Assembly: GCA_002773945.1 (NCBI GenBank)
Contig: PEZT01000028.1
Coordinates: 4,034 to 68,033, forward strand
Length of the DNA stretch: 64,000 nucleotides
Direction: 5' to 3'
DNA from: Candidatus Beckwithbacteria bacterium CG10_big_fil_rev_8_21_14_0_10_34_10
GTDB taxonomy: Bacteria; Patescibacteriota; Microgenomatia; UBA1400
A program made the position numbers and the translations under genes. Shown here one piece after another: positions 1,380 through 4,300 of this stretch. The first letter of the stretch is position 1, and each line of letters opens with the position of its first letter. The notes beneath the pieces are model-generated. The model saw only the letters and a list, made by a program, of their open reading frames with translations. It did not search any database and had not been told where the DNA came from.

Positions 1380-4300
1380 CTTGTTTTGGTTAATTAGGAC
1401 TGGTCAGCTAAAAACATTACTATCCTTACACCTCCAGCCTATATATCTGGTAGTCTTCCAGAAACCTTCAGTTTTTTCAAAACAAGAATACCTAATCTTG
1501 GGAACGGCTTCCCGCTTGAGATGCTTTCAGCAGTTATCCGTAACTAATGTGGCTACCCAGCTATGCGCTTGACAGCAACAACTGGCACACCAGGGATTAG
1601 CTCATCCAGGTCCTCTCGTACTGTGGACGACTTCCCTCAAGTATTCAACGCTTACTGCGGATAGAGACCGAACTGTCTTACGACGTTCTGAACCCAGCTC
1701 ACGTAGCGCTTTAATGGGCGAACAGACCAACCCTTGGGAGCTTCTCCACCCCCAGGATGCGCTGAGCCGACCGTGAGTTCTCCATTGTTTCTAATGGCAC
1801 GGACTATATCATCACCCTTTATATTAAATAAAGGGGTCCGGCGTATAATAACAGCTTTAGATTTATCACTATATGTGATAGTAGCTGCTATTTTGGATTA
1901 ATCCTCAGTCTCTACGGGGTCACTATATTATTTATAGGACTTCCCACGAGATTGCCCTTTGATAATACTAAAAATTATCAAGAGGGTTTCCCCGTTATTA
2001 GCCAGATTTTTCAACTTTGATTACTCAAAGAAGCGACATAACTATTTAGGTTTATCGAGGTAGCGAACCACGCCGTCGCTATGGACGCTTGGGCGTGACC
2101 ACTCTGTTATCCCTAGGGTAGCTTTTATCCGTTAAGCTCGGTGCCTTCCACACGGCATCCGAGGATCACTAAAACCGACTTTCGTCCCTGCTCCACTTGT
2201 AAGTGTCACAGTCAAGCAGCCTTCATGCTTTTACACGTCCAACTTGGTTTCCATCCAAGTTAAGGCTACCTTTGCGCGTTTGCGGTACTTTTTAGCAAAC
2301 AACCTCCCCAGTCAAACTGCCCACCAGACACTGTCCCCAAACCCGATTCAGGGTTCAAAGGTTAGATCTTAAATTATTAAAGAGCGGTATTCCACTGGCC
2401 CGAGCAAGCTCGGTCCCGCCTATTCTCGACAATTAATAACTTAAGCTCAATGCCAAGTTACAGTAAAGCTCCATAGGGTCTTTTTGTCCTGCAGTAAGCA
2501 GGCCGCATCTTCACAGCCATTTCAATTTCACCGGGTCTATCCCCAAGACAGTTCTCAAGTCGTTACACCTTTCGTGCGCGTCAGAACTCACCTGACAAGG
2601 TACTTCGCTACCTTTGAACAATTATAGTTATTGCTGCCGTTCACCGGGGCTTCAATTCCAGGCTCAATCAAAGATATCACCCAGTCATTTAACCTTCCGG
2701 CACTGGGCAGGTTTCAGCCCCTATACTTCCTCTTTCGAGTTTGCAGAGACCTGTGTTTTTGTTAAACAGTCGCTTGAGAATCGTTTGCTGCGTCCCACAT
2801 AAAGTGGGAAGGACATCTTCCTAAGTTACGTCCAGCTAATTTGCCGAGTTCCTTAGGGATAGTTCTCCCGCTCGCCTTAGTCTACTCGACTTGTCCACCT
2901 GTGTCGGTTTGCGGTACGGTTAGCTTAAAAGAAGTTAACGAAGTTTTTCTCGGAAGCTTAACGAGGTTGAATTGCCTTAAGCGAACTTAAGACTTTCTCA
3001 CAACTCAACGTTGTTTCAATAGATTTTCTGGTTGAAACTGTTTTGTTGCTTAGACGTCAATTCAATAAGACGCTCAACTTGTCAAGCTTCGTCCCTCCTT
3101 TAACATAAACTTAAAAGCTAGTACAGGAATATAAACCTGTTATCCATCGGCTACGCCATATGGCCTCACCTTAGGACCGACTAACCCTCAGACGACGAAC
3201 GTTGCTGAGGAAACCTTGGACATTCGGCGGTCCGGATTCTCACCGGACTCTCGTTACTCATACCGGCATTCTCACTTCTATGCTCTCCACTAGACTTTAC
3301 AGTCCAGCTTCACTGACCATAGAACGCTCCCCTACCACTTAATAAAATTAAGTCCCTATCTTCGGTTTTTAGTTTAATCCTCGTTAAATTTTCAGCGCCC
3401 CTAATCATCGACCAGTGAGCTGTTACGCTTTCTTTCAAGGATGGCTGCTTCTAAGCCGACCTCCTGGCTGTTTAAGATTAGAAACTTCTTTTCCAACTTA
3501 ACTAAAAATTAGAGACCTTAGATGAGGGTCTGGGTTGTTTCCCTTTAGCAACTGGAGCTTAGCCCCCAGCCGCTGACTGCCTCTATCATCCTAATTGGTA
3601 TTCGGAGTTTGATTAAATATGAGAAGCAAGCTCCCCATATCCATTCAGTGCTCTACCCCCAATAGAATTACGATAAAGACGCTATACCTAAATATATTTC
3701 GGGGAGAACCAGCTATCTCCGGGCACGTTTAGCATATTACTCCTACCCACAGGTCATCCCAACCTTTTGTAACAGATACGGGTTCGGGCTTCCCCTTCTA
3801 TCTCTAGAAGGTTCACCCTGCCCATGGGTAGCTCGCCCGGTTTCGGGTCTTCCTCTATCAATCAACGCCCATTTAAGGCTCGCTTTCACTGCGACTACCT
3901 AAGATAACTTAGTTAATCTAAACTGATAGAGAGAAACTCGCCGGTTCATTCTTCAATAGGCACGACATCACTGGCAAAAGCCAGCTCTGTCTGTTTGTTA
4001 GCAGACAATTTCAGGTTCTATTTCACTGGGTGTCTCACCCGTCTTTTCACCTTTCCCTCACGGTACTAGTTCACTATCGGTATCTTTGAGTATTTAGCCT
4101 TAGAGAGTGGTCTCCCTAGATTCCCACAAAAGTGGCATCTTCCGTGGTACTTAGGAATCCTCTAGGGTTTTATTGGATTTTGAATACAAGACTGTCACTT
4201 TCTCTGGTGTTGTCTTCCAACAACTTCTTCTATCCTTTAAAAATCCCATGTTGAGGTCCTGCAACCCCTAAAGTAAACTTTAGGTTTAGGCTTTTCCCCT

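What the first reader, a model, noticed from the sequence alone, without database searches (positions are those of the whole stretch)
1772..2053. ~280-nt insertion in the 23S rRNA peptidyl-transferase-centre region: candidate ORF-less group I intron
The universally conserved LSU sequence CCUCGAU|GUCGGCUC (around E. coli U2504/G2505, next to A2503) is split by a 282-nt AT-rich insert with no ORF. The 5' exon ends in U and the insert ends in G, as required for group I splicing (U.G pair in P1, omegaG). An unspliced insertion at the PTC would be incompatible with ribosome function, so it is probably removed post-transcriptionally. rRNA introns are known in CPR bacteria, and the 2449-2593 region is a recognised LSU intron hotspot. 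A minimal ORF-less intron at this exact site may be undescribed.
Basis: partly seen in the sequence, partly recalled or inferred. Interest (0 to 1): 0.7.

Follow-up and report, generated by a model that had tools for sequence, protein, structure and literature searches.

The report
ORF-less group I intron in 23S rRNA
The 282-base insert is a genuine self-splicing-type (group I) intron without a protein gene, sitting at the catalytic centre of the large ribosomal RNA gene of a Candidatus Beckwithbacteria (CPR) bacterium; this kind of element is already well documented in that group.

Summary
Window 1772-2053 (minus strand) is a 282-nt, 36% G+C insert. It splits the 23S rRNA exactly between U2504 and G2505 (E. 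coli numbering). It has no ORF above 55 aa.

- Rfam's group I model (RF00028) scores 57.8 bits against a gathering score of 50 (E 4.5e-12).
- All core helices can be drawn: P1-P9, the P3/P7 pseudoknot, a U.G pair at the 5' splice site, the G-C guanosine-binding pair in P7, the J8/7 consensus and a terminal omegaG.
- Across 12 homologues, 92.8% of core pair cells are paired (33-43% when partners are slid). 18 of 38 pairs show changes on both sides.
- Syntenic relatives carry the exact intronless junction CCTCGAT|GTCGGCTC.
- Three other contigs carry homologous introns at the same site. The closest relative, L067, still encodes a LAGLIDADG_2 homing endonuclease.

The neighbouring protein is 100% identical to one from a Ca. 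Beckwithbacteria MAG.

The novelty claim is weak. L2504 is a catalogued intron site in Cryptococcus mitochondria. Hundreds of ORF-less group I introns clustered round the peptidyl-transferase centre are already described in CPR 23S genes.

One modest new point: the L2504 introns belong to the widespread bacterial L2500 intron family, displaced by 4 nt.

Splicing itself is inferred, not shown. Verdict: new member of a known kind, low to moderate interest.

The parts
1374..4549 (-). 23S rRNA gene (host gene), full length, with one intron
   Evidence: Rfam RF02541, 2407.7 bits, model 1-2925
1772..2053 (-). Group I intron, 282 nt, inserted after U2504. Intron nt i corresponds to window coordinate 2054-i.
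   Evidence: RF00028 57.8 bits against a gathering score of 50, E 4.5e-12. The boundaries are fixed by restoring CCUCGAU|GUCGGCUC and by the intronless alleles.
2054..2057 (-). Last four 5'-exon nucleotides, C2501 G2502 A2503 U2504: the exon strand of P1
   Evidence: Pairs with intron G17-G20, with U2504.G17 as the wobble pair. The MFE fold of exon plus the intron 5' region gives exactly this helix.
2034..2037 (-). Internal guide sequence GUCG (intron nt 17-20)
   Evidence: Read directly from the sequence. The same GUCG lies before P2 in the closest relative L067, and it is extended to GUCGAGG in L122 and L123.
2038..2053 (-). P1 loop and extension (A1-U16, A2-U14, A3-U13, C4-G12). U16-A15 are the 2-bp P10 guide for G2505-U2506.
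   Evidence: The base before the guide is U or C in all four L2504 introns and always pairs with G2505.
2015..2030 (-). P2 hairpin CUUUGA-GUAA-UCAAAG (GNRA loop L2)
   Evidence: Conserved in L044 and L067.
2001..2006 (-). P3 5' strand UCUGGC
   Evidence: Pairs with 1837-1842. Covaries in homologues, e.g. UCGGC/GCCGA against UCUGC/GCAGA.
1946..1995 (-). P4-P5-P5a domain (P4 ACGGG/CUCGU, J4/5 GAAA, P5 CCCU/AGGG, P5a 8 bp)
   Evidence: P4 and P5 covary.
1916..1945 (-). P6/P6a/P6b hairpin. This is where homologues carry the LAGLIDADG_2 ORF; it is empty here.
   Evidence: ORFs in L067, L121 and L017.
1906..1912 (-). P7 5' strand G[A]GACUG with bulged A143. G144 forms the guanosine-binding G-C pair.
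   Evidence: Pairs with 1801-1806. G-C, A-U, C-G and U-A are invariant in 12 homologues, and the outer pair covaries G-C/A-U.
1848..1904 (-). P7.1 and P7.2 hairpins between P7 and the P3 3' strand (subgroup IA-type peripheral insertion)
   Evidence: Two hairpins occupy this place in the relatives whose sequences I read.
1837..1842 (-). P3 3' strand GCCGGA (closes the P3/P7 pseudoknot)
1815..1835 (-). P8 hairpin CCCUUUAU-UUAAU-AUAAAGGG
   Evidence: Five of six P8 pairs covary in the family.
1801..1814 (-). J8/7 (UGAUGAUA) and P7 3' strand UAGUCC
   Evidence: GAUAUAGUC is invariant in all homologues and matches the RF00028 consensus.
1782..1797 (-). P9 hairpin CCAUU-AGAAAC-AAUGG
   Evidence: All three distal P9 pairs covary.
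1772..1772 (-). omegaG (intron nt 282), immediately before G2505 at window 1771
   Evidence: Read directly from the sequence

Best explanation
Window 1772-2053 (minus strand) is an ORF-less group I intron inserted after U2504 of the 23S rRNA gene. Its architecture is subgroup IA-like, with P7.1/P7.2 hairpins. The host is a Candidatus Beckwithbacteria (CPR/Patescibacteria) genome.

Inferred mechanism, the standard group I pathway:
1. The pre-23S rRNA folds the intron core (P3-P9).
2. P1 presents the 5' splice site through the U2504.G17 wobble. P1 is exon CGAU paired with guide GUCG, extended by four intron pairs.
3. An external guanosine bound at the G-C pair in P7 attacks after U2504.
4. omegaG282 then occupies the same pocket. 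A short P10 (U16-A15 with G2505-U2506) aligns the 3' exon, and the exons are ligated to restore CCUCGAU-GUCGGCUC.

Inferred origin: it is an endonuclease-less derivative of a mobile L2504 intron of the kind still present in L067, which carries a LAGLIDADG_2 gene in P6. The L2504 introns belong to the much commoner bacterial L2500 intron family.

What is shown: the anatomy, the family membership, conservation of the fold, and presence/absence polymorphism at the exact site. What is inferred: splicing activity, homing and loss of the endonuclease gene.
For: - **Family model.** RF00028 scores 57.8 bits (gathering score 50), E 4.5e-12 over the window, covering the full model 1-253.
- **Complete core.** It was drawn on the sequence with every pair canonical. 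Free-energy folding independently returns P2, P3, P4-P5-P5a, P6, P7.2, P8 and P9, with z = -4.6. It also returns P1 and P2 for the exon-intron junction.
- **Covariation.** On a 12-sequence core alignment, 92.8% of cells are paired, against 33-43% with slid partners. 18 of 38 pairs change on both sides. 0 of 500 shuffles reach the observed values on four of five measures.
- **Catalytic signatures.** All are present: U.G at the 5' splice site, a bulged A followed by an invariant G-C in P7, the GAUAUAGUC J8/7-P7 consensus, and omegaG.
- **Same site elsewhere.** L122 and L123 have a perfect 7-bp P1, CCUCGAU/GUCGAGG. L067 has the same GUCG guide, P2 and P9 as the window and 75% core identity.
- **Intronless alleles.** Syntenic relatives L126, L133 and L134 lack the insert exactly.
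- **Homing endonuclease genes in relatives.** LAGLIDADG_2 ORFs sit in P6 of L067, L121 and L017 (E 1.6e-41 to 2.9e-43). They are 36-40% identical between L2504 and L2500 introns.
- **Host identity.** The neighbouring protein is 100% identical to a Ca. Beckwithbacteria protein.
- **Host rRNA is functional.** Helix 89 has compensatory changes, A2455-U2496 and G2456-C2495, so this is not a pseudogene.
- **Literature.** CPR rRNA insertions are reported as removed from transcripts, and group I introns cluster at the peptidyl-transferase centre (PMC11270868).
Against: - No RNA data exist for this locus, so splicing is inferred.
- P1 has only 4 exon base pairs and P10 only 2. The RF00028 score is only about 8 bits above the gathering score.
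- The L2504 homologues L122, L123 and L067 do not reach the gathering score.
- No maturase or endonuclease is encoded in cis.
- Subgroup assignment rests on helix topology only, because no subgroup covariance models were available.
- Whether this is the only rRNA operon of the genome was not tested. Only the literature statement that CPR usually have one copy (PMC11270868) bears on this.
Confidence: 0.9

Rival explanations
1. It is a group I intron by descent but is not an efficient self-splicer. Removal would depend on a host protein or a trans-acting maturase, or would be slow and act as a brake on ribosome maturation.
For: P1 is short (4 exon bp) and P10 is 2 bp. There is no intron ORF. The closest relative L067 carries a LAGLIDADG_2 protein; this family includes maturases (PMC11270868 introduction). 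The RF00028 score is modest.
Against: The whole catalytic core is intact and under purifying and compensatory selection. From my own knowledge, short P1 helices (3-4 bp) occur in active bacterial introns such as the Azoarcus tRNA-Ile intron. ORF-less relatives are common.
Confidence: 0.12
2. It is an intervening sequence excised by RNase III without ligation, leaving a fragmented 23S rRNA.
For: Such sequences exist in bacterial and CPR 23S genes (PMC11270868).
Against: The predicted fold shows no terminal stem pairing the two ends of the insert. The insert matches the group I model and has a conserved ribozyme core. A break between U2504 and G2505 would lie inside the peptidyl-transferase centre (inference). 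The IVS-type sites in the CPR survey are 23IS2 and 23IS4 (PMC11270868), which the numbering places upstream of the group I sites 23IS6-14; from my own knowledge these are the helix 25/45 sites.
Confidence: 0.03
3. The intron is retained in mature rRNA, as reported for the unspliced L1931 intron of Simkania (title cited in PMC11270868, reference 28).
For: There is a precedent for an unspliced 23S group I intron in a bacterium.
Against: The site lies between two universally conserved residues of the peptidyl-transferase centre. A 282-nt insertion there is very unlikely to be tolerated (inference from ribosome structure). The splice-site signatures U.G and omegaG are maintained in all four L2504 introns.
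Confidence: 0.02
4. It is an assembly chimera or mis-join placing foreign sequence in the 23S gene.
For: rRNA operons are hard to assemble from metagenomes. An independent Logan assembly of SRR6240789 carries a window gene on a contig of only 16,281 bp, which by my arithmetic ends near the 16S gene.
Against: The junctions are exact to the base and restore the universal sequence. Independent assemblies (L067, L122, L123) have homologous introns at the same site.
Confidence: 0.01

Closest known systems
Group I introns in CPR/Patescibacteria 23S rRNA genes (Brown et al. 2015 as summarised in, and Tsurumaki et al. 2024, PMC11270868)
   Same: Same host group, same gene and same domain V / peptidyl-transferase-centre cluster. 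Both ORF-less forms (222 reported) and LAGLIDADG-bearing forms occur. They are detected with the same Rfam model.
   Different: The text available to me names sites 1917, 1931, 1952, 2593, 2604 and 2657. It leaves 23IS9-11 (between 1952 and 2593) unnumbered, so I could not confirm that 2504 is one of the catalogued CPR sites.
Bacterial L2500 group I introns found here (24 loci, e.g. L044, L116 Ca. Roizmanbacteria, L100 Ca. Kerfeldbacteria, L095 Gemmataceae, L093 Coxiella endosymbiont)
   Same: Homologous core (59-71% identity in the 12-sequence alignment). Same P2 with a GUAA loop, P7.1/P7.2 and P9. LAGLIDADG_2 ORF in P6 (36-40% aa identity to the L2504 ORF). Similar intron 5' start, [U/G/A]AAC, in most members.
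   Different: Inserted 4 nt upstream, after U2500. The guide is GGGUGC pairing with GCACCU, and there is a 4-6-bp P10 with CGAU(GU). 8 of the 24 end in A, plus L037 whose 5' end lies outside its locus; the rest end in G. Their hosts have the exon GGCACCU, whereas all four L2504 hosts have CGC[U/G]ACCU.
Cne.mL2504 / Cga.mL2504, mitochondrial LSU rRNA introns of Cryptococcus (PMC5808193; Comparative RNA Web site)
   Same: Same insertion site in E. coli numbering. ORF-less (344-417 nt) and LAGLIDADG_2-containing (1,032 nt) versions exist.
   Different: Fungal mitochondrial host.
Self-splicing 23S introns of Thermotoga, Coxiella (Cbu.L1917, Cbu.L1951), Simkania and cyanobacteria (references 27-30 of PMC11270868)
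   Same: Group I introns in bacterial 23S rRNA, some ORF-less. Coxiella Cbu.L1917 lacks the canonical omegaG, like some of the L2500 relatives seen here.
   Different: Different sites (1917-1951, 2593). The window intron has a canonical omegaG.

Membership tests
Group I intron (Rfam RF00028) | Covariance-model score at or above the curated gathering score | tested here: met
   57.8 bits against 50, E 4.5e-12, model 1-253
Group I intron (Rfam RF00028) | Conserved core helices P3-P9 including the P3/P7 pseudoknot, maintained by compensatory change | tested here: met
   All pairs are canonical in the window. In the family, 92.8% of cells are paired against 33-43% when slid, 18 of 38 pairs change on both sides, and 0 of 500 shuffles reach the observed values on four of five measures.
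Group I intron (Rfam RF00028) | 5' exon ends in U that forms a U.G wobble with the internal guide in P1 | tested here: met
   U2504.G17 within CGAU/GUCG. The MFE fold gives this helix. L122 and L123 have a 7-bp version.
Group I intron (Rfam RF00028) | Terminal omegaG and a guanosine-binding G-C pair next to a bulged nucleotide in P7 | tested here: met
   G282 precedes G2505. G144-C252 is invariant in 12 homologues and A143 is bulged.
Group I intron (Rfam RF00028) | Guanosine-dependent self-splicing with exon ligation | not testable with these tools
   No transcript data or biochemistry. It is inferred from the anatomy and from the literature statement that CPR rRNA insertions are removed from transcripts (PMC11270868).
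Subgroup IA group I introns (Michel and Westhof classification; my own knowledge) | Extra P7.1/P7.2 (or P7.1/P7.1a) hairpins between P7 and the P3 3' strand | tested here: inconclusive
   Two hairpins are predicted at intron nt 150-206, and two hairpins occupy this place in the relatives I read. Subgroup covariance models were not available and covariation of these hairpins was not counted.
Mobile (homing-endonuclease-bearing) group I intron | Intron-encoded homing endonuclease ORF | tested here: not met
   No ORF above 55 aa and no Pfam hit in the window intron. The closest relative L067 does encode LAGLIDADG_2 in P6.
RNase III-processed 23S intervening sequence (IVS) | The ends of the insert pair into a long stem that is the RNase III substrate; no ribozyme core | tested here: not met
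   No terminal stem in the MFE or centroid fold, and a group I core is present.
Group II intron | Match to group II domain models; six-domain structure | tested here: not met
   No group II family appears in the Rfam scans of the window or of 1650-2200 at E up to 1. 282 nt is too short for this kind of intron (my own knowledge).

The most novel reading that the evidence does not exclude
The L2504 introns (window, L067, L122, L123) may have arisen from the common bacterial L2500 intron-plus-LAGLIDADG_2 unit by a 4-nt displacement across the tetranucleotide CGAU (C2501-U2504).

Observations that fit this:
- Most introns at both sites start with [U/G/A]AAC.
- The L2500 P10 guide AUCG is already complementary to CGAU. 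It resembles the L2504 P1 guide GUCG.
- The window and L067 introns end in ...A-CG, as if an A-terminated L2500 intron had captured exon C2501-G2502 and so gained a canonical omegaG.
- The 4-nt distance equals the 3' overhang left by LAGLIDADG enzymes (my own knowledge).
- All L2504 hosts have a changed upstream exon, CGC[U/G]ACCU. That change removes two of the six P1 pairs an L2500 intron would need.

If true, this would be a natural, traceable case of a ribozyme and its endonuclease retargeting together to an adjacent site in the peptidyl-transferase centre.
Probability: 0.3. Interest if true: 0.45.

Novelty: new member of a known kind. Interest (0 to 1): 0.25.

Why it matters
On its own the finding is an ordinary, well-formed example of the rRNA introns already known to be abundant in CPR bacteria. 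Its practical value is for annotation: the 23S gene of this Beckwithbacteria genome must be read with a 282-nt intron at L2504.

It has some modest added value. It documents L2504 as an occupied site in bacteria, with both intron-less and endonuclease-bearing relatives in hand. It also shows that these introns are close kin of the widespread L2500 introns 4 nt away. This gives a small natural system for asking how a group I ribozyme and its homing endonuclease change target site. In the L2500 branch, it also bears on how introns ending in A rather than G are spliced.

Tried and rejected
1. **First genome-contig scan.** The pattern GATATAGTC N{15,45} GTCGGCTC was too loose.
2. **Over-strict 3'-exon tests.** My first screen of those loci and the metagenome pattern required NNYGCATCCTGG after GTCGGCTC. 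This misses hosts with AGGGTATCC or AGGATATCC, and it initially hid L067. The count of L2504 introns is therefore a lower bound.
3. **Weak Rfam hits in relatives.** RF00028 at the gathering threshold does not detect the L2504 homologues L122, L123 or L067, nor the L2500 intron L100. Their membership rests on homology to the window, L044 and L116 introns.
4. **Whole-intron alignment failed.** MAFFT alignments A1 and A2 misaligned the P3 3' strand of L122 and L123. I replaced them with an anchor-defined core alignment, A4. A full-length covariance model was not attempted, because a model of about 280 positions would exceed the tool's time limit.
5. **Alternative guide rejected.** A guide GUUGA at intron nt 39-43 sits where L122 and L123 have their guide. 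I rejected it because the closest relative L067 has GUGAA there, which cannot pair with the exon, while GUCG before P2 is conserved.
6. **Host placement by rRNA.** BLAST of the 16S and 23S against the held loci was uninformative. The neighbouring protein solved it.
7. **CPR site numbers not recovered.** I could not get the numbers of sites 23IS9-11 from the supplement of PMC11270868, which shows them only in figures.
8. **Paper not held.** Raghavan et al. 2007 (PMC2045182) is not in the library.
9. **Negative searches.** No similar DNA in phage records and no L2504 pattern match in viral contigs.
10. **Masked locus.** L127, a syntenic relative, is masked with N at the site and is uninformative.
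Full report
**1. Observation**

The window carries one rRNA operon on the minus strand: 16S 6522-5021, tRNA-Ile(GAU), tRNA-Ala(UGC), 23S 4549-1374 and 5S 1322-1207. The 23S alignment to the bacterial LSU model is full length (model 1-2925, 2407.7 bits) apart from one large unaligned block in domain V.

Read on the minus strand, the sequence is ...GGUUCGCUACCUCGAU | AAACCUAAAUAG...GGAGAACUCACG | GUCGGCUCAGCGC. 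Only the boundaries 2053 and 1772 restore the universal CCUCGAUGUCGGCUC. The insert is therefore 282 nt and lies between U2504 and G2505. The E. coli numbering is checked against the known modified positions Cm2498, ho5C2501, m2A2503 and Psi2504 (my own knowledge).

The insert is 36% G+C against 50-56% in the flanks. Its longest overlapping ORF is 55 aa with no Pfam match.

**2. What it is**

- Rfam's Intron_gpI model (RF00028) matches 2057-1781 on the minus strand at 57.8 bits (gathering score 50), E 4.5e-12 for the whole window, covering model positions 1-253.
- I drew the secondary structure by hand from the family consensus and checked that every pair is canonical. In intron numbering (window coordinate = 2054 minus position):
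  - P1: exon C2501-U2504 with G20-G17, including the U2504.G17 wobble, extended by A1-U16, A2-U14, A3-U13 and C4-G12.
  - P2: 24-29/34-39, with a GUAA loop.
  - P3: 48-53/212-217.
  - P4: 59-63/104-108.
  - P5: 68-71/96-99, and P5a: 73-80/88-95.
  - P6, P6a and P6b: within 109-138.
  - P7: 142 and 144-148 with 248-253, with A143 bulged and G144-C252 as the guanosine-binding pair.
  - Two extra hairpins, P7.1 and P7.2: 150-206.
  - P8: 219-226/232-239.
  - J8/7: UGAUGAUA.
  - P9: 257-261/268-272, with an approximately GAAA loop.
  - omegaG: 282.
- Unconstrained folding recovers P2, P3, P4-P5-P5a, P6, P7.2, P8 and P9, with a z-score of -4.6 against shuffles.
- Folding the 5' exon together with the intron's first 49 nt gives exactly the proposed P1 and P2.
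- The hairpins between P7 and the P3 3' strand are the hallmark of subgroup IA (my own knowledge). I could not run subgroup models.

**3. Relatives**

Pattern scans of public contigs, plus look-ups through the neighbouring gene, gave the following.

*(a) Three further introns at exactly L2504.*
- L122 and L123 are metagenome contigs with ORF-less introns of 268 and 300 nt. Their guide GUCGAGG makes a perfect 7-bp P1 with CCUCGAU.
- L067 is an 880-nt intron. It is the closest relative of the window intron, at 75% identity over the conserved core. It shares the same GUCG guide followed by a P2 with a GUAA loop, the same P9, and the ending ...UAUACG|GUCGG. It carries a 200-aa LAGLIDADG_2 ORF in P6 (E 1.6e-41).

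*(b) Twenty-four introns at L2500, 4 nt upstream.* These come from many bacteria: Ca. Roizmanbacteria, Kerfeldbacteria, Paceibacter, Saccharibacteria, Gottesmanbacteria, Omnitrophota, Gemmataceae, a Coxiella endosymbiont and others, using the record titles as deposited. Their cores are plainly homologous to the window intron, at 59-71% identity.

*(c) Intronless alleles.* The gene next to the 5S (window 1-1155, minus strand) is 100% identical to a protein named for 'Candidatus Beckwithbacteria bacterium CG10_big_fil_rev_8_21_14_0_...'. This places the window in the CPR (Patescibacteria). Relatives at 66-70% identity in that protein keep the same synteny, rRNA operon followed by this gene. L126, L133 and L134 read ...ACCTCGATGTCGGCTCAG... 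without interruption. An alignment shows a single clean 282-column gap.

The intron is therefore patchily present in one lineage. This is the expected pattern for a mobile element that is gained and lost.

**4. Is the fold maintained?**

Whole-intron alignments were unreliable in the variable loops. I cut the conserved core out of 12 homologues with sequence anchors and counted my structure on it.
- 92.8% of the 456 pair cells are standard pairs, against 33-43% when the 3' partners are slid by 1-3 columns.
- 18 of 38 pairs show changes on both sides.
- No shuffle out of 500 reaches the observed values on four of five measures.
- Every helix that varies at all (P3, P4, P5, P6a, P7, P8, P9) has compensatory changes.
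- The four inner P7 pairs, including the guanosine-binding G-C, never vary.
- The host rRNA also shows compensatory changes in helix 89, A2455-U2496 and G2456-C2495 where E. coli has G-C and C-G. The gene is therefore a working rRNA gene and not a decaying copy.

**5. Mechanism**

Shown: the anatomy of a complete group I ribozyme, its conservation, and the exact presence/absence polymorphism.

Inferred: the standard two-step pathway. External guanosine attacks after U2504. omegaG282 then replaces it in the pocket, and the exons are ligated.

P10 is only 2 bp (U16-A15 with G2505-U2506). The base before the guide is U, C, C and U in the four L2504 introns, so it always pairs with G2505. An insertion between U2504 and G2505 lies in the heart of the peptidyl-transferase centre, so removal with ligation is required for function (inference). 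The literature states that CPR rRNA insertions are removed from transcripts (PMC11270868).

The absence of an ORF here, together with a LAGLIDADG_2 gene in P6 of the closest relative, fits the usual cycle of endonuclease gain and loss (inference).

**6. Rivals**

- An RNase III-type intervening sequence is unlikely. There is no terminal stem and a ribozyme core is present.
- Retention in mature rRNA (the Simkania precedent) is unlikely at this site.
- An assembly artefact is excluded by base-exact junctions and by independent assemblies with the same site occupied.
- The most realistic rival is that splicing needs help or is inefficient, given the short P1 and P10 and the lack of a maturase.

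**7. Comparison with what is known**

- CPR 23S genes are known to be rich in insertions: 82% of genes carry them, 433 are classed as group I introns with the same Rfam model, and 222 of those are ORF-less. They cluster round the peptidyl-transferase centre (PMC11270868).
- L2504 is a catalogued site in Cryptococcus mitochondrial LSU rRNA, with ORF-less and LAGLIDADG_2 forms (PMC5808193).
- Movement of group I introns into nearby rDNA sites by reverse splicing has been proposed from phylogenies (PMC1299323).
- The window intron is therefore a new member of a known kind.
- I could not establish whether L2504 is among the unnumbered CPR sites 23IS9-11.

**8. The more interesting thread**

L2504 and L2500 introns are one family, with homologous cores and homologous LAGLIDADG_2 genes at 36-40% aa identity. 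They sit 4 nt apart on either side of CGAU.

- All four L2504 hosts have the upstream exon CGC[U/G]ACCU. All L2500 hosts have GGCACCU, which is what the L2500 guide GGGUGC pairs with.
- Most introns at both sites begin [U/G/A]AAC.
- The L2500 P10 guide AUCG is complementary to CGAU and resembles the L2504 P1 guide GUCG.
- The window and L067 introns end in A-CG, whereas related L2500 introns end in A immediately before exon CG.

A simple neighbour-joining tree of about 150 core sites, without support values, places the window with L067 and places L122/L123 next to L044/L116. One shift or two are both possible. I rate a genuine 4-nt site shift as plausible but unproven.

**9. Verdict**

The novelty is low: a new member of a known kind. 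Interest is 0.25.

Noticed in passing
L011, L038, L043, L044, L048, L095, L100, L121 (3' ends of the L2500 introns; coordinates), and probably L037: Eight of 24 bacterial L2500 introns end in A, not G (...GUA|CGAUG or ...ACA|CGAUG); L037, whose 5' end lies outside its locus, does too. The 5' splice site is fixed by a 6-bp P1 (GCACCU/GGGUGC). The 3' splice site is fixed by a P10 of up to 6 bp (CGAUGU with AYAUYG). No other parse restores the rRNA sequence, and the P7 guanosine-binding pair is unchanged. The one precedent I know of is Coxiella Cbu.L1917, which 'lacks the canonical omegaG' (title cited in PMC11270868, reference 29). Here the feature is common within one family and spans several phyla.
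   Followed up: partly
L121:700-712 (minus strand), 23S of contig ORMF010723757.1: The 3' exon after the L2500 intron reads CGAGGUCGGCUC instead of CGAUGUCGGCUC. This implies G at the otherwise conserved position U2504 of the peptidyl-transferase centre.
   Followed up: no
window 2102-2103 and 2062-2063 (minus strand): The base of helix 89 in the 23S has compensatory replacements, A2455-U2496 and G2456-C2495, where E. coli has G-C and C-G. L122, L123 and L126 share them. L133, L134 and L067 have C-G and G-C. All L2504 introns occur in hosts with one of these variant exons.
   Followed up: partly
L067:6278-7598: About 1.3 kb lies between the L2504 intron and the 5S gene, where roughly 0.4 kb of 23S is expected, so L067 probably has at least one more large insertion downstream. 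The record is labelled 'uncultured Gammaproteobacteria', yet its 23S is the best match to the Beckwithbacteria window among the held loci. The label may be a binning error.
   Followed up: no
L126:1026-4692: The 23S of this intronless-at-L2504 relative spans 3667 nt, about 770 nt longer than expected. No Intron_gpI match reaches the gathering score, so the insertions are of an unidentified type.
   Followed up: no
L133:1434-1922 and L134:681-1169: A 162-aa LAGLIDADG_1 ORF sits inside the 23S 3' region, downstream of position 2504, in relatives that lack the L2504 intron. This is a different intron at a different site in the same lineage.
   Followed up: no
window 61437-61510 (minus strand): A tRNA-Ile with anticodon UAU (ARAGORN). 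To my knowledge this is uncommon in bacteria, which usually read AUA with a lysidine-modified CAU tRNA.
   Followed up: no
window 61557-63920 (minus strand): A 787-aa ORF with a weak local match to the conjugative coupling protein TraD (E 2.7e-13, far below the family cut-off).
   Followed up: no
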